From a virus: DNA of 64,000 bases. The position numbers and the translations under genes are program-made. Under the pieces are notes generated by a model that searched no databases, was not told where the DNA came from, and saw only the letters and a list, made by a program, of their open reading frames with translations. The DNA lies in IMG/VR virus record IMGVR_UViG_3300032897_000003, positions 14,930 through 78,929 of that record; one strand, given 5' to 3'. Shown here in pieces: positions 3,962-36,951 of this stretch (position 1 is the stretch's first letter; each line of letters opens with the position of its first letter).

Positions 3962-6114
3962 ACCAGCCACAGCCGAGGATGTATCGCCCAGCGTGGTTCG
4001 TGCGGTTGTACGTACGCCTGGAGGACTTCGGCCAGGCAGACGACTCGGACGCCCAGGACGAAGCCGTGCCGTACAAGCAAGCAGCTGTGCAGAAAGTCGT
4101 GCAGGCTGCGGTGGTAGAAGGGCAGATCGCGCAGGCAGCTGCCGGAGGCGACCGGTCGCGGGCTGCGATGATTGGGCTGCAGACCACGGCAAAGGCGCTC
4201 TGGCGCGATGCCGGCAAGGTAGCGAAGATGTCGTCTGCCGGGCCCGCCGGGAAAGGAGACGAATTCTCGATCGAGTTCGTGACGGCGCCGATGGTGCTCG
4301 ACATCGAAGACAAGGGATTCCGCGAGGCCGAGACCATGGACGTGACGGTGCCGTTTCAGGACGTGCCTCTGCATCCACTCATTGTGCGCGAGATCAGGAT
4401 CGAGGGTTGGGTGGGGACGGTCAAGCGGGAGGATTTCGCGACGCCGGAGCGATGGCATCTCGAACCGAAGATGTCGAAGACGAGCGTGTTGCGGTTCAAC
4501 GGCTACGTCGACTTGGCAGAGATGGAGTACGACGACTCGGCTGGGATGGTGCACCTCAAGTGCCGGTCCTACATAGCCGTGCTGATCGACGGCAAGATCA
4601 ACCCCCTGGCGAAGGCATACCGGATCGAGGGAGGGGAGGAGTACCTCACCAGCTACATCAACCGCATCCTGACACAGTACCCGCCGACCTCGGGAGACAC
4701 CGGCGGCTCTCCATTTCGCTGCTACTGGTACGCCAGCCCGTCAGATAAGGAGCCGAAGATCAGCAGGAAGCAGCTGTTGAGGTCGCTCCAGACGGCCAAG
4801 TCGCGGAACGCATCCGCCAACCAGTCGACCTCGAGCAATGTCAACGCGCAGCCAGATCCGACAGGGGAAGCTTCGGATGCGGCAGGCATGGGGGACGCGG
4901 CCCTAGCCGGAAACCCGATGATGCCCACCAAGGGAGTCACCGAGGACGGCATGTCGATCTGGGATCTCATCACGCAGGCCTGCGAGCTTTGCGGCGTGAT
5001 GCCCATGTACCGGCCGAGCTTGCCACCGTTCACCGGGAGCATTGGAGGCAAGGAGACGCAGATCGACCCGGCCAACTGCCTGCTCATCACGGCGCCAGAA
5101 GCGTTTCTGGACACCGTTTCGAACGCGACGCAGATCGCGGGAGGGGCCCGCGACGGTTTTCAGCGCGAGTTCTCGAACGGGTCGGCTGGCACCTTCCGCT
5201 CGGATGTTCGTTTCATGGTGTGGGGCCACCATGTCGGCAAGATGAAGCTGTCCCGTAAGATGGGGAAGCTTCGCCCCACCGGGGTAGAAGTGAGGGCGTA
5301 CAACCCCGACGCGGACGATGCCCTGCGAGTGCTCTCATCGCGGTACCCTCGCCACGTGGCCAAGAAGAAGCACGGCAAGTTCGGCCGGGCGGCCAAGAAG
5401 ATGCACGAGAAGGGGGGCGGAAAGGTCGACACCATCAAGGTGTTCGTGCTGAAGGGCATCCGCGACCAGCACGCGTTGGACATGGCCGCTGTGTCCCTCT
5501 ACCATCAGCTGACCCGTCCCGAGATCAGCATGCAGATCGAGACGGACGACCTGTCGAGCTACATCGACCCGGTGGCCAGCCAGCAGGCCGGTGTGTTGGT
5601 CGAGAATCACAACGATAACCCAGACATCCTGAGGCTGTGCGCGGGGACGCCCGTCCACGTGACGGTAGCTCGCAAGTCAACCCAGGAAGGGAATCTCGTC
5701 ATCTCGAGCCTGTCGGACTTCTACGATCTGGCCGGGAACAACATCGTCGACATCTTGCTGAAGCAAAACGATCGCTGGGGAGCCTTTCGCTCGGACGGCT
5801 CCATGGACCAGACGCGCATCGAGGAAACGGCCAGAAAGATCCAGGCGGCGTACCGGGCGGCCAAGCTGCCGTCGGTCTACTACTGCAGGCTGGTGCGATT
5901 GCACTTCGCCGCGGAGGACGAGAGCTTCCACGCTAGCATGGAGTTGACCAACTACATGCCGAGCAATGATCCGAGCCAGTTCGACGACGAGACGGAGAAA
6001 CTTAACGACGAGAGGAAGCGCCATCCGACAAGTGCGTCAGCAAAGAACGCCGCTGCAGAGAAGAAGCACACCGACGAGATCGTCACCCGTGGCGCGAAAG
6101 CGGGGATTCAATGA
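3958..6114 (+). CDS. baseplate hub protein (gpD/gp27-like)
   Basis: Probable GTG start overlapping the upstream stop; motif SIWDLITQACELCG; position before the spike. Confidence 0.6.
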   Translation: MNQPQPRMYRPAWFVRLYVRLEDFGQADDSDAQDEAVPYKQAAVQKVVQAAVVEGQIAQAAAGGDRSRAAMIGLQTTAKALWRDAGKVAKMSSAGPAGKGDEFSIEFVTAPMVLDIEDKGFREAETMDVTVPFQDVPLHPLIVREIRIEGWVGTVKREDFATPERWHLEPKMSKTSVLRFNGYVDLAEMEYDDSAGMVHLKCRSYIAVLIDGKINPLAKAYRIEGGEEYLTSYINRILTQYPPTSGDTGGSPFRCYWYASPSDKEPKISRKQLLRSLQTAKSRNASANQSTSSNVNAQPDPTGEASDAAGMGDAALAGNPMMPTKGVTEDGMSIWDLITQACELCGVMPMYRPSLPPFTGSIGGKETQIDPANCLLITAPEAFLDTVSNATQIAGGARDGFQREFSNGSAGTFRSDVRFMVWGHHVGKMKLSRKMGKLRPTGVEVRAYNPDADDALRVLSSRYPRHVAKKKHGKFGRAAKKMHEKGGGKVDTIKVFVLKGIRDQHALDMAAVSLYHQLTRPEISMQIETDDLSSYIDPVASQQAGVLVENHNDNPDILRLCAGTPVHVTVARKSTQEGNLVISSLSDFYDLAGNNIVDILLKQNDRWGAFRSDGSMDQTRIEETARKIQAAYRAAKLPSVYYCRLVRLHFAAEDESFHASMELTNYMPSNDPSQFDDETEKLNDERKRHPTSASAKNAAAEKKHTDEIVTRGAKAGIQ

Positions 6115-10909: not shown

Positions 10910-11316
10910 AGACGCTGGCCATTCTCCTAATTCTCGCAGCCGGTAGCTCCGGCGGATCAATGGGCGCTGGCGGGGCCGGCACGGGCGGCGTGAAGAACAC
11001 GGGCGGAAGCGTGACCGGAGGGACGCGCGGGACGGGCGGTAGGACAGGAAGCGGCGGTGGAACTGGTGGGTTTAGTACAGGCGGCCATGGAGTGTCGATT
11101 GACGCTGGAAGTGGTGGCAGCCCTGGAACCGGTGGTCGAACGGGAACAGGCGGCAGCCCAGGCGCGGGCGGGCGACCCGGCACCGGAGGGAGTGCAGGCA
11201 CGGGCGGCACTCCAGGCACGGGTGGCATCCCTGGAACCGGTGGTCGACCAGGGACCGGCGGGGCCGGAGGGTATGGTATTTACTACCAGGACGCGAGACT
11301 GCGGAGGACGCAGTGA
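10906..11316 (+). CDS. Gly/Thr-rich (GTGG-repeat) protein with hydrophobic N-terminus
   Basis: MKTLAILLILAAG followed by ~100 aa of GTGG/GSGG repeats. Confidence 0.55.
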   Translation: MKTLAILLILAAGSSGGSMGAGGAGTGGVKNTGGSVTGGTRGTGGRTGSGGGTGGFSTGGHGVSIDAGSGGSPGTGGRTGTGGSPGAGGRPGTGGSAGTGGTPGTGGIPGTGGRPGTGGAGGYGIYYQDARLRRTQ

Positions 11317-27442: not shown

Positions 27443-30121
27443 GTGCAGTACCAAGCAGATCTTGACAAGACCCCACCGCATGACCGAGCCGCAGAGCTCG
27501 CCGTGATCGGGTGCGCTCTGGTCACGCCAGAGGCTATCGTAGAGGTCGGAGAGCTGTACCCGACCGACTTTTTCTCGCAGGAATGTCAGGAGGCTTGGGG
27601 GGCGATCCAAGGCCTCGTCGGTGAAAGCTTGGCAGTAGATATCGTGACCGTTGGACAGCGGCTGAAGGACTCCGGGTGCGCGGATCGGTTTGAGGGCGGT
27701 TGGGCAACCTGGGCGGTTTCGGCGAGCTCGAATGTTCCAACCGTGCACAACGTGAAGCATTACGCAGACATCGTCCGTAACAAGGCTATCTTGCGCAAGC
27801 TGATCGCAGTGGCCATCGAGACGATGTCGAGAAGCTATTCAGGGGCGAAGGCCGAGGACGTGTTGCTCGACCTCACTTCAGCCGTGTCGGAGCTTCAAAC
27901 CAGGGCCACGAGCAAAGAGCCTGCGCTGCTGAAAGACGCCATTCCAGTCGCCATCGAAACCATCAGCATGAAGTGCGACCCGAGAAATCACAACGTGCTG
28001 GTGCGGACAGGAATAGCCCCCTTGGACGCACACATCGGAGGGTTGGCACCGGAGGAAATGGTTGTTGTCGCGGCCAGGCCTGGAGTCGGGAAAACGAGCT
28101 GGGCGAATGGAGTGGCTGAGTACGCGGCTGGAGTTTGCGGGATACCGACTCTGTACATCTCCGTCGAGATGTCCCAGCAGCAGCAAATCGAGAGGTTCAT
28201 TTCGATGGAGAGCGGGATCCCTGCGACGGCATTCCGCTCGGGAAGAATCGACGGGAAGACGCTGACCCTGGACCATCACAAGAAGGTCCTGCAAGTAGGC
28301 GAGCGGCTGATGAAGATGCCGCTCTGGATAGACGCCGAGTCGATGACCCTCGGGCGTATCTTGAGCACCTCTCGACGGTGGCACGCAAAGCACGCGGTTG
28401 CCTCCGGCATGAAGATTTGTCTCATCGTCATCGACTACCTGCAGCTCATAGCAATGCAGGCGCAGGAGAAGCCTATCCCACGCGAGCAGCAGGTAGCGAT
28501 GATTTCGAAGTCCTGCAAGTGGCTGGCGAAGACTCTGAAGTGCCCGGTGCTCGTGTGCAGCCAGCTCAATCGCAAGGTGGAGGAGCGAGGTGGGGAGCCA
28601 GTGTTGTCGGACTTGAGGGAGTGCCTTACCGGCGAAACGCGCATCTGGGACGCAGCTACGGGAGGGACGGTCTCCGTGCGCGATTTGTCAGCCGGCGGAA
28701 ATGCTCTCGTGTGGGGTATTCGCGACCGGTACCAGATCGGATCCGCAATGGTGAGTAAGGCCTGGTCGACAGGCGTAAAGCCGGTGTACCGAGTGCAAAC
28801 CGCCAGTGGCCGGGTGATACGAGCAACCGGGAATCATCCGTTCCTGACGGTTAGTGGATGGACGAAACTTGCCGAGGTGGCGCTCGGAGAGCGTATCGCT
28901 GTACCACGCTTCATCCCGCAGCATGCGTGTAAGTATAACCCGCACACCGTCGACCAGCTTCGTCTGCTCGGGTTCCTGATTTCCGACGGACACTATGGAA
29001 AGAACAGGTCGGTCGGATACGTGAAGGGAGACCACGTCCTTGTCGACGAGGTCCGGAGGATAGCGAAGTCCTCCTTTGGTATCGACGCCAAAGATCATCC
29101 CTGCCATGGAATCGCACAGCAGATCGAGCTCACCACGAAGCAAGCTGGCCCGGGGTGCAATCCGGTGATCAACTGGCTGAAGGCGCTTGGCGTTCACGGT
29201 CAGTTGGGTCCGAAAAAGCGGATACCAGAATCGGTGTTTACCTGCGACAATGACCATGTTGCGGAATTTCTGGGTGCACTTTGGTCAGGCGATGGCTCTG
29301 TGGTTCAGAGGAAGACGGGGGGATGGGTACTCAAGTTCGCATCGACCAGCAGAGGACTCCTGCAAGACATCCAGCGCATGCTGTTGCGCTTCGGAATCGT
29401 GAGCGTGTTGGGTAATCCAAGACGCAACAGCAAGTCGACGATGGACATAGCCACTGTCACGATCGGAGATGGGGATGCAATTGCCGCATTTGCAAGGCAG
29501 ATTAGGCTCCATGGTGAGAAGCAGCGAAAACTGGAGATTGCTGCCCAATGGGTTGCCAGCGAGCGCGAGCATGAAAATGCCAGGGCAGATCGCATGCCAA
29601 TCGAAATCACTGCTCATGTTTCGGCATTGAAAGAGAAGCGTGGATGGTCATGGGAAGAACTAGGATATCGCTGTCAGAAAAAGGAGATGAGCCGCGCTTC
29701 TCTGGGCAAAGTCGCTCGTAAGCTCGACGACGACAAACTGCTTGCCCTTTCCGATAGCGACATCCTGTGGGATCAGGTCGTGGCAATTTCCCCGGACGGC
29801 AACGAAGAAGTGTTCGATGTCTCAGTGCCAGCCATGGGGAACTTTGTCGCCGATGGCTTTTTTGTCCATAACAGCGGCGCCATAGAGCAAGATGCAGACA
29901 TCGTGTTCTTTCTGCACCGGTCGGAGGATGAACAGAGCACCGTCGAAGGCGAAGTCATCTCGTGGCTCATCGCCGGAAAGAACCGCAACGGCCCGGTCGG
30001 AAAGTACAAGATGAAATTCGTTGGCGGGCGGACGAAGTTCTTCGGTGCCGAGCAGGATGACGACGGGGCCCGGGACGCCATGGGCGATCCTGCCGATGAT
30101 CCACATTGGAGCGACAGATGA
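27443..30121 (+). CDS. dnaB: replicative DNA helicase DnaB, intein-containing
   Basis: PPHD.AAELAVIG, AARPGVGKT, VIDYLQLI, SQLNR, LSDLRE|...|SGAIEQDADIV. Confidence 0.95.
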   Translation: MQYQADLDKTPPHDRAAELAVIGCALVTPEAIVEVGELYPTDFFSQECQEAWGAIQGLVGESLAVDIVTVGQRLKDSGCADRFEGGWATWAVSASSNVPTVHNVKHYADIVRNKAILRKLIAVAIETMSRSYSGAKAEDVLLDLTSAVSELQTRATSKEPALLKDAIPVAIETISMKCDPRNHNVLVRTGIAPLDAHIGGLAPEEMVVVAARPGVGKTSWANGVAEYAAGVCGIPTLYISVEMSQQQQIERFISMESGIPATAFRSGRIDGKTLTLDHHKKVLQVGERLMKMPLWIDAESMTLGRILSTSRRWHAKHAVASGMKICLIVIDYLQLIAMQAQEKPIPREQQVAMISKSCKWLAKTLKCPVLVCSQLNRKVEERGGEPVLSDLRECLTGETRIWDAATGGTVSVRDLSAGGNALVWGIRDRYQIGSAMVSKAWSTGVKPVYRVQTASGRVIRATGNHPFLTVSGWTKLAEVALGERIAVPRFIPQHACKYNPHTVDQLRLLGFLISDGHYGKNRSVGYVKGDHVLVDEVRRIAKSSFGIDAKDHPCHGIAQQIELTTKQAGPGCNPVINWLKALGVHGQLGPKKRIPESVFTCDNDHVAEFLGALWSGDGSVVQRKTGGWVLKFASTSRGLLQDIQRMLLRFGIVSVLGNPRRNSKSTMDIATVTIGDGDAIAAFARQIRLHGEKQRKLEIAAQWVASEREHENARADRMPIEITAHVSALKEKRGWSWEELGYRCQKKEMSRASLGKVARKLDDDKLLALSDSDILWDQVVAISPDGNEEVFDVSVPAMGNFVADGFFVHNSGAIEQDADIVFFLHRSEDEQSTVEGEVISWLIAGKNRNGPVGKYKMKFVGGRTKFFGAEQDDDGARDAMGDPADDPHWSDR
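28622..29872 (+). mobile_element. intein with LAGLIDADG homing endonuclease in DnaB (417 aa)
   Basis: Starts CLTGET, block B ATGNHPF, LGFLISDG and FLGALWSGDG, ends FVHN before Ser. Confidence 0.95.
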
Positions 30122-30769: not shown

Positions 30770-31432
30770 ATGCGACGACCGAAACCACCTACGAGCATCA
30801 ACAACGTCAACGTCAGCCCGACAGCACCAGCGGACAAGCCCGGCGGAGAAAACCCGATCGAGGTTACGATCCGTCCGCTGAACCTGCAGCGCACGACCAT
30901 CAAGATCCGCGGCATCAGCACGCTGATCATGCACGCCTGGAGTCAGAAGGCCATCAAGATGATCGAGGACAAGCAGCAGAAGAAAGCCACGGGGCCGCGG
31001 AAGGCGAAGGACCCGCAGGCCGACTTCGAGAGCGCGCGATATCGCATCGACAAGAACACGGACGGGATCCCGGCCATCGCGCTGAAAGCGTGCGCTGTCG
31101 AGGCCGGCGTGTTGCTCGGGCTGAAGAAGACGAACTTGCGTAAGTCCTTCTTCGTTGGGCCCGACGGCGAGGAGCTCATCCCCATCATCGTGGCCGAAGA
31201 GCCAGCGATGAGGCGGGACATGGTGCGAGTCGGGATGGGCACCAGCGACGTGCGGTACCGACCGGAGTACAAGGACTGGAGCTGCGAGATTCCGATCGAG
31301 TTCAACGCCGACGCGATCTCGGCCGACCAGCTCGTCAACCTGTTCGACCAGGGCGGGTACTCCGTCGGGGTCGGCGAGTGGCGGCCCGAAAAGGACGGGA
31401 CGCACGGAAGATTCAGGGTGGTAAGCGAATAG
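30770..31432 (+). CDS. stand-alone Cas7/RAMP-like RNA-binding protein (candidate effector of the adjacent repeat array)
   Basis: RRM-like beta1 IKIRGISTLIMH, GIPAIALKA (compare RAMP IPGSSLKG), C-terminal Gly-rich loop GVGEWRPEKDGTHGRFRV; AAGGAG RBS. Confidence 0.7.
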   Translation: MRRPKPPTSINNVNVSPTAPADKPGGENPIEVTIRPLNLQRTTIKIRGISTLIMHAWSQKAIKMIEDKQQKKATGPRKAKDPQADFESARYRIDKNTDGIPAIALKACAVEAGVLLGLKKTNLRKSFFVGPDGEELIPIIVAEEPAMRRDMVRVGMGTSDVRYRPEYKDWSCEIPIEFNADAISADQLVNLFDQGGYSVGVGEWRPEKDGTHGRFRVVSE

Positions 31433-31438
31433 CTGCCC

Positions 31439-32053
31439 ATGCTGAACCACCTGGCACAGTTGCCGCGCCCTTCCCTCGACCTGACAGAAGGAGACTGTGA
31501 GATCGTCCGCAAGACGCTCGAGCAGTTGAAGTCGGAAGGGCGTGCGACACCAGATGCATTCCTCACCGCAGCGGAGCCGGAGGACAGTCCGCTCCATAAG
31601 TTTTTCGAGTGGGACAACGACCGGGCTGCGCACGAGCACCGCCTACTGCAGGCGCGCCAGCTCGTTCGCACGGTTGTTCTTCGTCCCGTCCGCGTGGAGA
31701 CGACCAGGAAAACCATCAGCGTTCGCATAAATCCAAGCGTGCGAGAGGAGGATGAGGACGACGAGCGACCGGAGCCAAGACTGCCTCTTCCGACCCCGAT
31801 ACCAGAAACGCAGGTGACAAGAGGGAAAATCAAGGAGCTGGCGGATCGAATCGAGGATGCGCTCAAAGATGCCCGTGGAACCATGGACATCTTCGACGAG
31901 ATGAGAACGCTGCGCGAGATCTTGGCAGACCTACGGCAAAAAGCACCCTGGGAGGGAAAGCGTTGCCCGAAGTGCAGCTTGCTCGGGCATGCTCCAGGCT
32001 CACGCTTCTGCACCCCGGTGAACCAGTGTCTAGGAAGAAAGGCGATCGACTGA
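31439..32053 (+). CDS. conserved partner protein of the RAMP-like gene
   Basis: SPLHKFFEWDNDRAAHEHRLLQARQLVR motif; C-terminal CPKC...GH zinc knuckle; stop codon abuts the array. Confidence 0.65.
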   Translation: MLNHLAQLPRPSLDLTEGDCEIVRKTLEQLKSEGRATPDAFLTAAEPEDSPLHKFFEWDNDRAAHEHRLLQARQLVRTVVLRPVRVETTRKTISVRINPSVREEDEDDERPEPRLPLPTPIPETQVTRGKIKELADRIEDALKDARGTMDIFDEMRTLREILADLRQKAPWEGKRCPKCSLLGHAPGSRFCTPVNQCLGRKAID

Positions 32054-32056
32054 CAT

Positions 32057-32574
32057 GGCAGTAAGGGTTGGCTGGGCTTGTCTTGGATCGGCCGTCAGGT
32101 ACTGGCTAGTCTGGTCGTGGCTGCGCAGGCAGTCATGGCTGGTCGGGGCGTCGATTGGCGTGGCCGTCGGGTTTGGGAGCGGCCAGGAAAGGCGGGTCCA
32201 GGCCAGGCAGTATGGGCTGGTCATGGTCGGGACATGAAGGCTTGGCTAGGCAGGCAAGGCGAGGTACGTCGGATCATGGGTAGGAACGGCAGGCGTCGAA
32301 TGGCAAGGATGGGCCTCGGTGGCAAGGCCTGGCAGTCAGGGCTTGTCTGCGCCAGGAAGGGAATGGTTTGGACAGGCAGGGCATGGATCGGCAGGAGCGG
32401 CCAGGATTTGTTGGGACAGGCGGGTCAAGTCGTGGAGTGGCAGGCATGGCTAGTCTCGGCGACGACAGGAGGGGATGGGCAGGAAGTGCTAGGCTTGGTT
32501 TGTACCGGATCGGAGGGGCAGGCGGGGCTAGTTGTGGCCCGGAACGAAGCGGAAAGGCAGGGCAGGCATGGACG
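32057..32574 (+). repeat. 5-nt-periodic G(G/T)H-NN array in about 12 blocks delimited by GGCA/GGCC (candidate guide-RNA array)
   Basis: Delimiters at 32057, 32090, 32128, 32162, 32206, 32249, 32288, 32331, 32390, 32439, 32478, 32517, 32561, with pentamers between them. Confidence 0.85.
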
Positions 32575-32975
32575 TAGAGCAAATTGACTTGAACCACATC
32601 AAGAGAGCGGTGTTCGAGCTCGTCTGGAAGGAAGATGGGCGAGTCACGCTGTTCATCAACAAACACGACAGCCGCGTGTTCCCTCAACCGGGACCGGGGA
32701 TTCTTTCTTCAGGCAGCAAGAATGATCGGCATCTCAAGGCCGAAAGAGATGGGATTTCAGGAACGATATCCGTCCGTTGGAGAAGTGAGAGTGGTGGAAT
32801 CTCAAGCACGGCCAGCGAAGGGATCCCGCCAGTCGAGGTATTTCTTCCGTGGGAGTGCTTGGCCGGCATCTCGCTGGGCAATCCGAATGCTCCAGTGTTC
32901 GCTGGCGTTTGGGCTCTGTGGGAGGGCTTCACCTCGGACAATGACGTCGAGGTCCCGACGAAACAGATGTGCTGA
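32568..32975 (+). CDS. hypothetical protein, possible divergent SspB-like fold
   Basis: GRVTLFI...DGISGTIS...VFLPWECL resembles the 54196 SspB. Confidence 0.4.
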   Translation: MDVEQIDLNHIKRAVFELVWKEDGRVTLFINKHDSRVFPQPGPGILSSGSKNDRHLKAERDGISGTISVRWRSESGGISSTASEGIPPVEVFLPWECLAGISLGNPNAPVFAGVWALWEGFTSDNDVEVPTKQMC

Positions 32976-33155: not shown

Positions 33156-33659
33156 ATGCCACAGGCGCAGCTCTTTGCCGAGGAGCCCAGAGCGGTGTTC
33201 AGTGACGACCGTCGCTACCGGTATCGACTTTGGCGAACCGTCGAGGACGTTGCGATCCTGAAGCGCAAGGCGGTGATGATCGGGCTCAACCCGAGCATTG
33301 CCGACGAACACGTGTTGGACCCGACTCTGAAGAGGTTCTTGTCCTTCTGCCGACTCTGGGGCTGCTCGCGTATGGAGGTGGTCAACCTGTTCGCGCTCGT
33401 CAGCACTGATCCGTCCGGGCTGTACACGTGCGCTGATCCGGTCGGACCTGGGAACGACTTGGCCATCGACGTAGCTGTGGTCGATGCAGACGTCATTGTC
33501 GCATGCTGGGGAGCCCATCCAATGGCTGCGAAGCGGGCATCCGACGTGCTCAGTATGCTCGGTACCAGGCAGCTGATGTGCTTCGGGCGCAACCACGACG
33601 GCTCTCCCAAGCATCCGCTCTACCTGCCGAAGACGGCCGAGCTGTCGGTGTATGCATGA
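33156..33659 (+). CDS. DUF1643 family protein
   Basis: AVFSDDRRYRYRLWR, IGLNPSIAD..DPT, VNLFA, GSPKHPLY. Confidence 0.9.
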   Translation: MPQAQLFAEEPRAVFSDDRRYRYRLWRTVEDVAILKRKAVMIGLNPSIADEHVLDPTLKRFLSFCRLWGCSRMEVVNLFALVSTDPSGLYTCADPVGPGNDLAIDVAVVDADVIVACWGAHPMAAKRASDVLSMLGTRQLMCFGRNHDGSPKHPLYLPKTAELSVYA

Positions 33660-34015
33660 CCACGCTAGATTCGGTACTGGAAGTGCTGCGCGGGATGCGC
33701 ATCATGTTCTCGGACGAGAAGGAGCTACAGGACGCGGTCGAGAAGGCGATGACGACCGCGAGTATCCCTCACCAGCGAGAGGCTATCCTCGGGCCTCGCG
33801 ACCGGATCGACTTCATGGCGGACGGGGGGATCGGAATCGAGTGCAAGATCGACCACAGCCGGGCGGACTTGCTGAGACAGCTGTTCCGCTACAGCAAACA
33901 GCCACAGGTGCGCGTCTTGGTTGTGGTGCTAGGGAAGCTGCGACTGTCCGCGCTCCCTACCGAGATGAACAACATCCCCATCCACGTGGTCAACCTCGTG
34001 AGGGCCTTCGTTTGA
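33656..34015 (+). CDS. small PD-(D/E)XK nuclease-like protein
   Basis: E.ELQ...RE...RIDF...IGIECK...QL.RY. Confidence 0.6.
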   Translation: MTTLDSVLEVLRGMRIMFSDEKELQDAVEKAMTTASIPHQREAILGPRDRIDFMADGGIGIECKIDHSRADLLRQLFRYSKQPQVRVLVVVLGKLRLSALPTEMNNIPIHVVNLVRAFV

Positions 34016-36951
34016 GCGGGCAAGTCTCTCTATTCTCGAAAGTAGCCGAACCTGCGGCTAAGTCTGCACATGCTGGGGTGGTCAGAGCGGTACGAATCTA
34101 CGGGAAGGTGATCTACAACGTGGCCAAGCGGGCCTGGGAGATCGACTGCGAGCCGCAGGTAAGGCAGCGTCTGAAACGGGTGTTTCCGCGGATCAAGGCG
34201 GGAGCGGTCGACCTTTGCCTCGAGGACAACATCGACGCCGGGCGGGACCTGGCGTGGTTTCTCGATCGCTATCCAATGGAGATCTCACCGGCAGACATGC
34301 GGCTCTTGCGCGAGCGAGAGACCGAGCACCGCGTGCTGGTTGAGGACATCGGACGGATCATGCAGTCGGACTATGTGCCGACGGACATCACGTTGGCAAT
34401 ACCGCTGCGCAACTACCAGGCGCAGGCAGTCGATCTGACGAAGCGGGTGTTCGGGCTGCTCGATGCGGATGATCTCGGAGTCGGGAAGACAGCCATTGGA
34501 ATCGGATTGCTGGCCGATCCAAGGGCGCGTCCGGCGCTGGTCGTTACGTTGACCCACCTACCCGGGCAGTGGAAGCGCGAGATCGAACGGTTCGCCCCCG
34601 GACTCAACGTGCACATCCTGAAGAAGGGAACACCGTACAAGTTCGAGATCCGCGGCGGGCAGGAGTATTTCCCCGACGTCATCGTGACCAACTACCACAA
34701 GCTGGTCGGGTGGGCCGAAGAGCTACACGGCAAAGTCCAGACGGTGATCTTCGACGAGGCGCACGAGCTGAGGCGCAGCACGAGTGAGAAATACAGCGCT
34801 GCCAAGCGGGTCGCAGCAAAGTCGCGGTATAGGCTTGGGCTCACGGCAACCCCGATCTTCAACTTCGGTGGCGAGTTCTTCAATATCGCGGACGTGCTCC
34901 GCCCAGGAGATCTCGGAACGTGGGAGGAATTCTGCACGGAGTGGTGCAGTGGCTTCGCCGACAAGACGAAGGCCACCATTACGAAGCCGAAGGAGTTCGG
35001 GGCATACGTGCGCGAAGCTGGTTTGATGATCCGGCGTACGCGCAAAGAGGTTGGGCGCGAGCTGCCGCCGCTTACCATCTGCCCGCAGCTCGTCGATGCC
35101 GACCTGTTCTACTTGGACGAGATCGAGACCGAGGCCACCGCGCTGGCCAAGATCGTCTTGTCGGGAGGGGCTAACCCGTTCGAACAGCTGCGAGCAAGCC
35201 AGGAGCTGTCATGGAAGCTGCGCCAGGCCACTGGCGTCGCGAAGGCTCCTGCAGTAGCCGAGTTCACCCGCATGCTTGTGGAGGGGGAAGAATCGGTCGT
35301 GCTGTTCGGATGGCACCGTGAGGTGTACCGCATCTGGGCGGAGCGGCTGGCCGACCTCGAACCGGTGTTTTTCACGGGAGAGGAGACTCCAGGGCAGAAG
35401 GAGGCAGCCGCGCAGGCCTTCATCGGTAAGAAAACCAAGTTGCTCATCATGAGCCTGCGGGCCGGGGCAGGCATCGATGGCCTGCAGAAAGCCTGCAGGA
35501 CAGCCGTGTACGGTGAGATGGACTGGTCCCCGGCCGTGCACGAGCAGTGCCTCTCGAGCGATACCGAGATATTGACGCCAGCCGGATTTCTCGGGGTTGA
35601 CGCCGTAAAAGAGGGTGATGAGGTGGCTGCGTTCGACGCTGCGACCGGAGAGATTCGATGGGTTGCCGCGACGAGCAAGGTGGATCGAACTCTCGGCGAC
35701 GACGAACGGATGTACAGGTGCTACTCGAAGAAGGTCGATTTCCTGGTGACCGGGGATCACCGAATGGTCGTGAGGCGAAAAACCAGAACGACGGCAGGGG
35801 TTGGCAGGTCCCAGTGGGAGTTCGACATCGCTAGAAACATCGCGGGGTCGGCAAGACGCTTCATCCCTACGAGCGGGGTTCAGTCATCCGACGGTGTTCC
35901 TCTGAGTGACTATGAGCTAAGGCTGCTGGGATGGTTTGTGACCGACGGACATTTCAGTGGGCATCAATTGATCTTCTATCAGGCTGAACAACAGCCGTGG
36001 AATGAAGACCTCGTCGAGGTGCTCAACGGATGCGGCATCGGGTGGACGCTCTTTAAGCGACGAGTCGTGCGGCCAAGCGGGGTCACAGTGATGAACTGGT
36101 ACCACGTACCAAAGGGTAATTGCCCTCGGTGGTCAGAAGAGGAGCTAGACCAACTTCTGGCGGTGACAGGACTCCCCGAGAGACTGGCTCTGGCGAAGAA
36201 GATGGGCAGAACAGAGTATGCGCTATACAAAAAACAGAGAAAGTGGGCACAAGGAGAACGCCCGGTCCCGGTCAAAAAGCGAGCTGGGCGTGGATATGAA
36301 ACCTTGGAAAAATACCTCGATAAGAACCTCAGTCCACACCTCGACTCGATGACGAGAGAGCAATTGCGGGCTTTCCTTCGCGGAGTCAATATGGGCGATG
36401 GTGCGAAAGCGATGAAACTCAGCTACAAGATAACGAGCACGAACCGCTTGTTCTTCGACCGCCTCCAATCGCTCTGTGTGCGCCGTGGATTCTCTGCCAA
36501 TTTGTCGACGCGCAACGCAGTCACCAAAGCAGGGAAGCCGATTTATGATCTGTGGATTGCCGACAAGGCAGAGGCGTCAGTCGCGCGATCAGGTAAACCC
36601 GGAGGTTTCGCGGAATGTGCGACCGAGTCTAAAGTTAGGGTGTGGTGCCTCAGCAATGAGCTCGGCACTCTAGTCACGCGCAGGAATGGGAAGGTCGCGA
36701 TCGTCGGCAATTGCACTGGTCGTCTGTTGCGTGACGGACAACCGGATCCGGTGTTTGCCTATTACCTGCTGGCAGACTGTGGGAGCGACCCGGTCATCTC
36801 GGACGTGCTCGGGGTGAAGAGGGCGCAGCTGGAGGGGATTCGCGACCCGAGCGGAAATCTCATCGAGATGGCCCAAACTGATCCGGAACGGGTGAAGCGC
36901 TTGGCGGAGGCCTACTTAAGGCAGAGAAAAACGGCACCAGAGCGACAATAA
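34012..36951 (+). CDS. SNF2-family helicase, intein-containing
   Basis: LRNYQ, ADDLGVGKT, IFDEAH, LTATP, WSPAVHEQ|...|CTGRLLRDGQ. Confidence 0.9.
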   Translation: MSGQVSLFSKVAEPAAKSAHAGVVRAVRIYGKVIYNVAKRAWEIDCEPQVRQRLKRVFPRIKAGAVDLCLEDNIDAGRDLAWFLDRYPMEISPADMRLLRERETEHRVLVEDIGRIMQSDYVPTDITLAIPLRNYQAQAVDLTKRVFGLLDADDLGVGKTAIGIGLLADPRARPALVVTLTHLPGQWKREIERFAPGLNVHILKKGTPYKFEIRGGQEYFPDVIVTNYHKLVGWAEELHGKVQTVIFDEAHELRRSTSEKYSAAKRVAAKSRYRLGLTATPIFNFGGEFFNIADVLRPGDLGTWEEFCTEWCSGFADKTKATITKPKEFGAYVREAGLMIRRTRKEVGRELPPLTICPQLVDADLFYLDEIETEATALAKIVLSGGANPFEQLRASQELSWKLRQATGVAKAPAVAEFTRMLVEGEESVVLFGWHREVYRIWAERLADLEPVFFTGEETPGQKEAAAQAFIGKKTKLLIMSLRAGAGIDGLQKACRTAVYGEMDWSPAVHEQCLSSDTEILTPAGFLGVDAVKEGDEVAAFDAATGEIRWVAATSKVDRTLGDDERMYRCYSKKVDFLVTGDHRMVVRRKTRTTAGVGRSQWEFDIARNIAGSARRFIPTSGVQSSDGVPLSDYELRLLGWFVTDGHFSGHQLIFYQAEQQPWNEDLVEVLNGCGIGWTLFKRRVVRPSGVTVMNWYHVPKGNCPRWSEEELDQLLAVTGLPERLALAKKMGRTEYALYKKQRKWAQGERPVPVKKRAGRGYETLEKYLDKNLSPHLDSMTREQLRAFLRGVNMGDGAKAMKLSYKITSTNRLFFDRLQSLCVRRGFSANLSTRNAVTKAGKPIYDLWIADKAEASVARSGKPGGFAECATESKVRVWCLSNELGTLVTRRNGKVAIVGNCTGRLLRDGQPDPVFAYYLLADCGSDPVISDVLGVKRAQLEGIRDPSGNLIEMAQTDPERVKRLAEAYLRQRKTAPERQ
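35548..36711 (+). mobile_element. intein with LAGLIDADG endonuclease in the SNF2 helicase (388 aa)
   Basis: Starts CLSSDTEIL, block B VTGDHRM, LGWFVTDG and FLRGVNMGDG, ends RRNGKVAIVGN before Cys. Confidence 0.9.

What the first reader, a model, noticed from the sequence alone, without database searches (positions are those of the whole stretch)
32057..32574. Two-level grammar of the array: constant triplet plus variable dinucleotide, punctuated by 4-nt delimiters
Manual parse examples: GGCA|GGCAT GGCTA GTCTC GGCGA CGACA GGAGG GGATG|GGCA|GGAAG TGCTA GGCTT GGTTT GTACC GGATC GGAGG|GGCA|GGCGG GGCTA GTTGT GGCCC GGAAC GAAGC GGAAA GGCAG|GGCA (32439-32564). Delimiter spacings are 33, 38, 34, 44, 43, 39, 43, 59, 49, 39, 39, 44 nt, i.e. 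mostly 4+5n. Four blocks contain one 4-nt unit instead of a pentamer. No two blocks share the same NN series, so this is not slippage of a simple microsatellite. Example NN strings: 32162 GG-TG-GC-CA-AA-GG-CA-CA; 32390 GC-CA-TT-TG-CA-GG-AA-GT-GT; 32439 AT-TA-TC-GA-CA-GG-TG; 32478 AG-TA-TT-TT-CC-TC-GG; 32517 GG-TA-GT-CC-AC-GC-AA-AG. Inference: each block is one guide of about 12-22 informative nt, and GGCA/GGCC marks processing or register-reset points.
Basis: partly seen in the sequence, partly recalled or inferred. Interest (0 to 1): 0.9.

Follow-up and report, generated by a model that had tools for sequence, protein, structure and literature searches.

The report
Phage VIPR guide-RNA array (staggered type)
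The odd G-rich five-base repeat is the guide-RNA array of a VIPR system, a phage RNA-guided DNA-silencing system first described in 2026. Two of its guides match, by the published gapped code, a bacterial anti-phage dCTP deaminase gene and a transposase gene.

Summary
Window 32057-32574 holds a non-coding, 45% G array with a mean period of 4.87 nt, unique in the 64 kb. It consists of 88 pentamers (G-G/T-C/A/T-N-N) cut into 12 blocks by GGCA or GGCC tetramers at exactly the reported positions.

The element is a VIPR vrRNA array of the published "staggered" architecture (bioRxiv 10.64898/2026.04.26.720920).
- The gene at 30770-31432 is a Vipr homologue. It matches SUSP1 Vipr (PDB 36pp) at E 7e-12, keeps the GGY-binding residues and has a Cas7/Csm3-like fold.
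- The same gene, a partner gene and the same kind of array recur in most of 84 related phage loci, including cultured Gordonia, Mycobacterium and cyanobacterial phages.

Under the published 1-nt-skip rule, two whole blocks match conserved coding motifs, with the skipped base at the codon wobble position.
- Block 32394-32438 matches 18/18 to the TTFPCHNCA zinc motif of anti-phage dCTP deaminase genes (13/13 viral hits, 119/120 genome hits).
- Block 32335-32389 matches 22/22 to an IS5-like SWIM-DDE transposase (21 metagenome hits).
- Reversed-order and 2-nt-gap controls gave 0 hits.

RNA processing at the delimiters is untested. This is a new member of a known kind; the defence-gene target is the new lead.

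The parts
30770..31432 (+). vipr gene: a minimal RAMP (Cas7-like) protein of 220 aa, the vrRNA-binding effector.
   Evidence: phmmer against PDB gives 36pp_D 'SUSP1 Vipr protein' at E 2.3e-7. A profile of 33 homologues gives E 7.2e-12 over chain residues 2-187. Invariant H55, R164 and E203-W204-R205 align with SUSP1 H17, R138 and D177-W178-R179. The AlphaFold model has pLDDT 82, and its top PDB folds are Csm3/Cas7 of type III and VII complexes at probability 1.0. It belongs to phrog_4652.
31439..32053 (+). Candidate vipr-accessory (vap-like) gene, 204 aa. It has an N-terminal helical domain with the motif SPLHxxFEWDDxxAAxxHRLxQAR.
   Evidence: tblastn finds the N-terminal domain directly next to vipr in 63 of 84 related loci; no other neighbour is conserved. 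It matches phrog_15946. The model has pLDDT 71 (83-96 for residues 10-83) and no PDB fold match. Whether it equals one of the published vap1-6 could not be checked.
32057..32569 (+). vrRNA array, staggered type: 12 guide blocks of 6-11 pentamers separated by GGCA/GGCC tetramers.
   Evidence: The same kind of array is found in at least 57 of 80 IMG/VR loci and in 4 cultured phages, always on the vipr strand. Stop codons occur in all six frames of the related arrays.
32335..32389 (+). Guide block 8: 11 pentamers, NN = AG-TT-TG-CA-AG-AT-TT-CA-AG-AT-TC. The predicted target is an IS5-like SWIM-DDE transposase gene.
   Evidence: There are 21 exact 22/22 matches with 1-nt gaps in metagenome contigs and 0 in IMG/VR. 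All are antisense to the codons NEILCKILCHNL, about 32 aa from the C-terminus of proteins of roughly 400 aa. These carry Pfam SWIM + DDE_Tnp_1 and match the NCBIfam IS5 family.
32394..32438 (+). Guide block 9: 9 pentamers, NN = GC-CA-TT-TG-CA-GG-AA-GT-GT. The predicted target is the anti-phage dCTP deaminase gene (PADLOC dCTPase).
   Evidence: All 13 exact IMG/VR hits, and 119 of 120 exact hits in species-representative genomes, lie antisense to the codons TTFPCHNCA. The proteins match PADLOC PDLC02373 at E 1e-146 to 1e-169. In Myxococcota dCTPase genes picked by profile alone, the guide matches 15-18 of 18 positions in all full-length genes.
32078..32587 (+). Chance open frame of 169 aa across the array; not a gene.
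   Evidence: It shows no period-3 signal and has no family hit. The related arrays carry stops in every frame.
32568..32975 (+). Downstream ORF of 135 aa with no family. It is not part of the conserved module.
   Evidence: It has no tblastn match in any of the 84 related loci and no Pfam, PHROG, NCBIfam or PADLOC hit.

Best explanation
Window 30770-32574 is a complete VIPR (Viral Interference Programmable Repeat) locus of a roughly 79-kb wetland phage. It holds a vipr gene, a vap-like partner gene and a staggered array of 12 vrRNA guides.

Inferred from the published mechanism: the array is transcribed with the operon, and Vipr protomers bind one per pentamer. They sequester the first three bases and present the two N bases. 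These pair with double-stranded DNA while skipping every third target base, and the bound filament blocks transcription.

Each stretch between two GGCA tetramers is one guide. The tetramer is a pentamer that shares its last G with the next unit, so it shifts the register by one base.

Shown here in silico: guide 9 is aimed at the zinc-binding catalytic motif of anti-phage dCTP deaminase genes, and guide 8 at an IS5-like transposase. In both cases the skipped base falls on the codon wobble position. One guide therefore covers many diverged copies of its target gene.
For: 1. Effector. The adjacent gene is homologous to the solved SUSP1 Vipr over nearly its full length and conserves the residues that hold G1, G2 and Y3 (residues). 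Its predicted fold is RAMP/Cas7.

2. Array. The pentamer logo in relatives is G .93, G .82, Y .93, N, N. Of 489 tetramers, 337 are GGCA. The modal block is 9-10 pentamers, and 372 of 391 guides are distinct. This fits vrRNAs of 9-16 GGY/NN repeats and the 1-nt-overlap 'staggered' arrays.

3. Linkage. vipr, the partner gene and the array co-occur in permuted order across phages of Gordonia, Mycobacterium, a cyanobacterium and many uncultured phages.

4. Not coding.

5. Targets under the 1-nt skip rule. Two full blocks match perfectly, delimiter to delimiter, at conserved motifs with wobble skipping. The same dinucleotides in reversed order, or with 2-nt gaps, give 0 hits. Guides of relatives hit the DPPY motif of ParB-methyltransferase genes and a prohead protease gene in other phages, in frame.

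6. No self-target in the 78.9-kb phage and no dCTPase gene in it.
Against: - No RNA evidence exists. Transcription, processing at GGCA and binding by Vipr are all inferred.
- The scaffold is unusually loose. Only 42% of the window's pentamers are GGY, and a third have A at position 3, which the SUSP1 Y3 pocket is reported to exclude.
- Four blocks carry an internal 4-nt unit that would break the register.
- Ten of the twelve blocks have no identified target. The scanned ones (32166, 32521, and the first eight units of 32335) gave only noise-level hits.
- The collection scans found exact matches only.
- The VIPR type (I-VII) and the identity of the partner gene with a published vap could not be established.
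Confidence: 0.93

Rival explanations
1. The array is a decaying or decoy VIPR array. It descends from vrRNAs, but most blocks no longer load Vipr or no longer have targets.
For: Only 37 of 88 pentamers are canonical GGY. Four blocks have register-breaking internal tetramers. Most blocks have no detectable target.
Against: The vipr gene is intact, with all invariant residues. The two blocks with perfect 22/22 and 18/18 target matches are themselves poor in GGY (4/11 and 2/9). NN information is therefore kept where the scaffold deviates, which points to a relaxed scaffold rather than decay.
Confidence: 0.07
2. The region encodes the 169-aa Gly/Arg/Trp-rich protein of ORF 32078-32587.
For: One frame is open across 510 nt.
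Against: There is no 3-nt periodicity and no family hit. Homologous arrays in relatives have several stops in all six frames. The annotated 'gene 40' of Gordonia phage UmaThurman is the same kind of array.
Confidence: 0.01
3. The region is a DNA-level element: a replication origin, an R-loop or G-quadruplex-forming tract, or an RNA sponge for a ring-shaped RNA-binding protein (TRAP or CsrA style).
For: It lies in the replication module (DUF1376 primosomal protein, DnaB, SNF2). It has strong G/C strand asymmetry. The triplet-plus-spacer period recalls TRAP sites (own knowledge).
Against: In other phages the module moves with vipr to unrelated places, for example between the tail chaperone and tape measure genes in phage ODay or beside the immunity region in Brocalys. 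The variable dinucleotides match foreign genes. The adjacent protein is a Vipr homologue.
Confidence: 0.02

Closest known systems
VIPR systems, staggered-array architecture (bioRxiv 10.64898/2026.04.26.720920, fig. S18)
   Same: It shares the Vipr RAMP effector next to an intergenic array of GGY/NN pentamers. Successive guides share one nucleotide, seen here as the GGCA tetramer. It is phage-encoded, has a two-gene operon with an accessory gene, and has no self-targets.
   Different: Per the paper, the staggered architecture was not confirmed by small-RNA sequencing. Here the boundaries are supported by two targets that span exactly one block each. The scaffold in this phage is looser (G-G/T-C/A/T). 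I read the figure legend only, not the figure, and could not assign a type I-VII.
Type II VIPR of Escherichia phage SUSP1 (PDB 36pp; bioRxiv 10.64898/2026.04.26.720927 and 10.64898/2026.10.15.759431)
   Same: The Vipr proteins are homologous (E 7e-12), with conserved H17, R138, W178 and R179 equivalents. The pentamer code and the wobble-aligned 1-nt-skip targets in coding sequences are the same.
   Different: SUSP1 vrRNAs are separate transcripts of about 100 nt, each capped by an invariant 3' tail with a pseudoknot; here there is no tail between guides. D177 is E here. SUSP1 guides aim at a phage satellite, whereas here the identified targets are a defence gene and a transposase.
Class 1 CRISPR-Cas Cas7/Csm3 backbone filaments
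   Same: Both have the RAMP fold (Foldseek probability 1.0 to Csm3 and type VII Cas7). One protomer binds per repeat unit of the guide, with periodic base flipping.
   Different: This locus has no repeat-spacer array, no other cas genes and no adaptation genes. The period is 5 nt rather than 6, and three of five guide bases are sequestered.
Phage-encoded CRISPR-Cas of Vibrio phage ICP1 aimed at the host PLE island (own knowledge, not checked here)
   Same: A phage carries an RNA-guided system whose guides are aimed at a host-borne anti-phage element.
   Different: ICP1 uses a type I-F CRISPR-Cas system that degrades DNA and acquires spacers. Here the predicted action is silencing by a minimal Vipr filament, and the guide reads a conserved protein motif rather than one element's sequence.

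Membership tests
VIPR system | A Vipr protein (a minimal RAMP with RRM core, G-loop and thumb) is encoded next to the array. | tested here: met
   A profile of 33 homologues hits SUSP1 Vipr 36pp_D at E 7.2e-12 over chain residues 2-187 of 202. The model has pLDDT 82, and its top PDB folds are Csm3, Cas7 and Cmr6 at probability 1.0.
VIPR system | The residues that hold the GGY bases in SUSP1 (H17, R138, D177, W178, R179) are conserved. | tested here: met
   In the HMM alignment, H55, R164 and E203-W204-R205 of the window protein align with these residues. All are invariant in 33 homologues. D177 is replaced by E.
VIPR system | The vrRNA consists of tandem pentamers with a conserved GGY and hypervariable NN, 9-16 units per guide. 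| tested here: met
   The logo in relatives is G .93, G .82, Y .93, N, N. The modal block is 9-10 units, and 372 of 391 guides are distinct. The window has blocks of 6-11 units, with GGY in only 42% of units (counted by hand).
VIPR system | The NN dinucleotides match DNA targets with a 1-nt skip, on either strand, with the skip typically at the codon wobble position. | tested here: met
   Guide 9 matches 18/18 in 13 viral and 119 genome loci. Guide 8 matches 22/22 in 21 metagenome contigs. All matches are in frame with wobble skipping. The 2-nt-gap and reversed-order controls gave 0 hits. This was shown for 2 of 12 guides only.
VIPR system | The array is transcribed, and the RNA co-purifies with Vipr. 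| not testable with these tools
   The only run holding the sequence is one wetland metagenome DNA run.
VIPR system | An accessory vap gene sits in the operon. | tested here: inconclusive
   A partner gene is adjacent to vipr in 63 of 84 loci. Its identity with the published vap1-6 could not be compared, and it has no PDB fold match.
VIPR system | The system does not target its own genome. | tested here: met
   The best own-genome scores do not exceed those of shuffled guides.
VIPR staggered array (fig. S18 of the discovery preprint) | Adjacent vrRNAs overlap by 1 nt, so the end of one marks the start of the next. | tested here: met
   A 4-nt GGCA unit followed by GG makes a pentamer that shares its last G with the next unit. 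The junction logo is GGCA|GGC in 489 junctions. Two target matches start at the first pentamer after one GGCA and end at the last pentamer before the next. Actual RNA ends were not tested.
CRISPR-Cas | An array of direct repeats of about 25-40 nt separated by unique spacers, plus cas genes for processing and adaptation. | tested here: not met
   No tandem or direct repeat of that kind was found. The neighbouring genes are replication genes and unknowns. Only the RAMP fold is shared.
Type III toxin-antitoxin (ToxIN-like) RNA repeats | Tandem near-identical repeats of about 36 nt next to an endoribonuclease toxin. | tested here: not met
   The blocks differ in length and sequence. There is no PADLOC or Pfam hit to such toxins.

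The most novel reading that the evidence does not exclude
A phage uses VIPR as a counter-defence weapon. Guide 9 is aimed at the catalytic PCxxC zinc motif of the anti-phage dCTP deaminase gene. Because the code skips wobble bases, one 9-unit guide matches this defence family across many phyla, at 15-18 of 18 positions in every full-length Myxococcota member sampled. The three VIPR preprints report rival phages, satellites, prophage regulators and other VIPRs as targets and never use the word 'deaminase'; defence genes do not appear among the targets in the passages I read. A second point is that this Vipr clade appears to tolerate a relaxed scaffold with A at position 3.
Probability: 0.45. 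Interest if true: 0.75.

Novelty: new member of a known kind. Interest (0 to 1): 0.5.

Why it matters
VIPR was described only in 2026, and its staggered arrays had not been validated by RNA sequencing. This locus gives independent sequence-level support that the GGCA tetramers bound individual guides. It shows the code working on conserved protein motifs. It also points to cultured Gordonia and Mycobacterium phages in which the system can be tested. If the dCTP deaminase match is functional, RNA-guided silencing joins the known phage counter-defence strategies. Wobble skipping would then be a way to hit a whole gene family with one guide.

Tried and rejected
- Tandem Repeats Finder and Rfam found nothing.
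- Nucleotide search of the locus against cultured phages found nothing.
- Before the identification I considered a TRAP/CsrA-type sponge, an R-loop or G4 origin, a type III TA RNA and a coding ORF. All were dropped on the evidence above.
- A local 1-nt-skip scan of all window guides against the phage's own genome and 84 related loci found nothing above shuffled guides. No other window guide hits the 133 dCTPase loci.
- Guides 32166 and 32521 (16 informative positions) gave 13 unrelated hits and 1 hit in IMG/VR. The first eight units of guide 8 gave 77 hits that are near-identical copies in AT-rich marine phages. I treat all of these as noise.
- Blocks with 14 or fewer informative positions were not scanned in the collections.
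- The transposase pattern (up to 2 mismatches) occurs in 1 of 401 Myxococcota genomes searched, so it does not support a Myxococcota host.
- No guide in the 391 from relatives resembles guide 9.
- The partner protein has no PDB sequence or fold match and no NCBIfam or PADLOC hit.
- No RNA holder is listed for the region.
I stopped that step and counted the triplets by hand from the output.

Full report
The stretch 32057-32574 is 45% G and 20% C. The G autocorrelation peaks at lags 5, 10, 15, 19-20, 24, 29, 34 and 39 and is negative at lag 3. The mean period is therefore about 4.87 nt, and there is no codon periodicity. Fourier power at 4.85-4.9 nt reaches 9.3, against a 99th percentile of 2.2 for 200-nt windows across the 64 kb. 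All the top windows lie here. Tandem Repeats Finder and Rfam report nothing.

A Viterbi parse into units of 3-7 nt was trained on related arrays. It gives 88 pentamers and 17 tetramers in the array proper, 32057-32564. GGCA or GGCC tetramers lie at 32057, 32090, 32128, 32162, 32206, 32249, 32288, 32331, 32390, 32439, 32478, 32517 and 32561. Four blocks each hold one further 4-nt unit (32066, 32124, 32235, 32317).

One correction is needed. Counting by hand, only 37 of 88 pentamers begin with GGY. Another 21 begin with GGA, 21 with GTN and 9 with something else. The 'constant triplet' in this phage is closer to G-(G/T)-(C/A/T).

**Setting.**
The array fills a 514-nt gap between ORF 31439-32053 (204 aa, phrog_15946) and ORF 32568-32975 (135 aa, no family). 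All genes in the region run on the + strand.
- Upstream lie a DUF1376 primosomal protein, a DnaB helicase with an intein, phrog_12688, and a 220-aa protein of phrog_4652 (30770-31432).
- Downstream lie DUF1643, phrog_5928 and an SNF2 helicase with an intein.

The record is an IMG/VR virus contig of 78,929 bp, rated 99% complete by CheckV. Its only sequencing run on record is a wetland metagenome.

**The array is conserved, linked to one gene, and not coding.**
A search of IMG/VR with the 220-aa protein returned 80 loci at 39-51% identity.
- At least 57 of the 80 loci carry a G-rich array (39-56% G) of period 4.9 and 200-1010 nt, on the same strand as the homologue and mostly 0.5-1.5 kb downstream of it; a few lie just upstream. 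Most of the rest carry a shorter one or are cut off.
- In these relatives every one of the six frames carries several stops across the array. The window's 169-aa ORF 32078-32587 is therefore a chance open frame.
- The pooled logo is G .93, G .82 (else T), C .58/T .35, N, N. Of 489 tetramers, 337 are GGCA, and the junction logo reads GGCA|GGC. The number of pentamers between tetramers peaks at 9-10. Of 391 parsed guides, 372 are distinct.

Cultured phages carry the same module:
- Gordonia phage ODay has it between the tail chaperone and tape measure genes.
- Gordonia phage UmaThurman has it; the array there is annotated as CDS 'gene 40'.
- Mycobacterium phage Brocalys has the array upstream of the gene.
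- Cyanophage Cy-LDV1 has two arrays.

The N-terminal domain of the 204-aa protein lies next to the homologue in 63 of 84 loci. No other neighbour is conserved. The unit is therefore gene A + gene B + array, in permuted order.

**Identification.**
phmmer of gene A against PDB sequences hits 36pp_D, 'SUSP1 Vipr protein' (E 2.3e-7). A profile of 33 homologues raises this to E 7.2e-12 over residues 2-187 of the 202-residue chain.

The literature search then found the VIPR preprints:
- **Discovery paper** (10.64898/2026.04.26.720920). It describes phage-encoded systems made of a minimal RAMP (Vipr, about 20 kDa), usually one accessory gene (vap), and vrRNAs of 9-16 pentamers in which GGY alternates with hypervariable NN. 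The NN bases pair with double-stranded DNA while skipping one target base per unit. There is no PAM, either strand can be targeted, and the skip usually falls on codon wobble positions. The result is transcriptional silencing of rival mobile elements. Seven types are defined. The array architectures include 'staggered arrays with overlapping vrRNAs', derived from positions that overlap by 1 nt, and the paper's wording implies these were not confirmed by sRNA-seq.
- **Structure paper** (10.64898/2026.04.26.720927). It shows one protomer per repeat. G1 is held by H17 and D177, G2 by R138 and W178, and Y3 by a pocket that includes R179.

In my alignment these residues correspond to H55, E203, R164, W204 and R205 of the window protein. 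All are invariant in the 33 homologues. The AlphaFold model (pLDDT 82) finds Csm3, type VII Cas7, Cmr6 and Cas7-11 as best PDB folds at probability 1.0. The GGCA tetramer followed by GG is a pentamer that shares its last G with the next unit. That is the 1-nt overlap of the staggered architecture.

**Testing the code on this array.**
No window guide matches the phage's own genome or the 84 related loci better than shuffled guides do.

*Guide block 32394-32438.* The 1-nt-gap pattern (9 units, 18 informative bases) was scanned in three ways.
- In IMG/VR it gave 13 exact hits. All lie at one homologous site, antisense to the codons T-T-F-P-C-H-N-C-A, and the N positions vary between hits.
- The proteins are 460-650 aa. 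They match PADLOC dCTPase (PDLC02373) at E 1e-146 to 1e-169 and Pfam dCMP_cyt_deam_1.
Of these, 119 are the same motif in the same family, across many phyla; 1 is unrelated.
- As an unbiased sample I searched 401 Myxococcota genomes with the protein profile. In the genes found, the guide matches 18/18 in 11, 17/18 in 11, 16/18 in 5 and 15/18 in 2. This is at or above the 80% threshold the authors use.
- Controls in IMG/VR gave 0 hits each: the same dinucleotides in reversed order with 1-nt gaps, and the same order with 2-nt gaps.
- The phage itself has no dCTPase gene.

*Guide block 32335-32389.* This block has 11 units and 22 informative bases.
- It has no exact hit in IMG/VR but 21 in JGI metagenome contigs.
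- All are antisense to the codons N-E-I-L-C-K-I-L-C-H-N-L, about 32 residues from the C-terminus of proteins of roughly 400 aa. These carry a SWIM zinc finger and a DDE_Tnp_1 domain and belong to the IS5 family by NCBIfam.

In both cases the match starts at the first pentamer after one GGCA and ends at the last pentamer before the next. The flanking delimiter units do not match. This is direct sequence evidence that blocks equal guides.

Both blocks are poor in canonical GGY (4/11 and 2/9), yet their NN bases are perfect. This argues for a relaxed scaffold rather than decay.

Other scanned guides gave only scattered or near-duplicate hits, which also serve as a noise baseline. No other window guide hits the dCTPase loci.

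**The rule in relatives.**
The 391 guides of related arrays were scanned against about 1.1 Mb of fetched loci.
- With a 1-nt skip they give 2 perfect hits and 8 one-mismatch hits.
- Shuffled guides give 0 and 3; a 0-nt skip gives 0 and 6; a 2-nt skip gives 1 and 3.

Among the seven best (the two perfect hits and the one-mismatch hits of guides with 8 or more units), three are in frame with wobble skipping:
- a 10-unit guide at 19/20 on the DPPYNVAYEG motif of a ParB_N-N6_N4_Mtase gene;
- an 8-unit guide at 15/16 on the NKLALNAG motif of the same family in another phage;
- an 8-unit guide at 16/16 in a prohead protease fusion gene.

**What is shown and what is inferred.**
- Shown: the array's structure, its non-coding nature, its linkage to a Vipr homologue with conserved RNA-binding residues, and two statistically clear gapped matches bounded by the delimiters.
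- Inferred from the published system: transcription, Vipr filament assembly, DNA binding and silencing.
- Unknown: how or whether the RNA is cut at GGCA, the role of the partner protein (model pLDDT 71, no fold match), the VIPR type, the host, and the targets of the other ten guides.

It is not excluded by the dCTPase target, which is present in 34 of 401.

**Novelty.**
The kind of system is known, so this is a new member. The preprints report rival phages, satellites, prophage regulators and other VIPR systems as targets. A term search of two of them found no mention of a deaminase or of defence genes as targets. A VIPR guide aimed at the catalytic motif of an anti-phage defence gene is therefore a new and testable lead.

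Noticed in passing
L082 4619-4942 (Gordonia phage UmaThurman NC_031249, 33362-33685): The annotated CDS 'gene 40, hypothetical protein' coincides with a GGY/NN array between the Vipr homologue (gene 39) and the partner gene (gene 41). It is probably a vrRNA array, not a gene.
   Followed up: partly
L084 (Gordonia phage ODay MW534375, 9948-12060): The VIPR module (gene 19, array at 10973-11185, gene 20) sits with two HTH genes between the tail assembly chaperone and the tape measure genes. This looks like a moron-type insertion in a cultured, tractable phage.
   Followed up: partly
L083 4604-4827 and about 5430-5580 (Cyanophage Cy-LDV1 BK059895): Two separate period-4.9 arrays flank the gene after the Vipr homologue.
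   Followed up: no
L004 9638-9666, L076 6682-6704, L017 4254-4276: Guides of related phages (L048, L021, L026) match other phages with a 1-nt skip, in frame. The sites are the DPPY and NKLALNAG motifs of ParB_N-N6_N4 methyltransferase genes and a site in a prohead protease fusion gene.
   Followed up: partly
window 27443-30121 and 33652-36951: Both the DnaB helicase and the SNF2 helicase carry inteins (Intein_splicing, Hint_2 and LAGLIDADG_3 hits).
   Followed up: no
window 32057-32560: A third of the pentamers have A at the third position, and a quarter have T at the second. This is far more than in related arrays (6% and 13%). The two guides with perfect targets share this loose scaffold.
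   Followed up: partly
L339-L359 (JGI soil, peat and wetland metagenome contigs): The SWIM + DDE_Tnp_1 transposase targeted by guide 8 is common in soil and wetland contigs of 52-69% GC. It occurs in only 1 of 401 Myxococcota genomes sampled, so it may help to find the host.
   Followed up: partly
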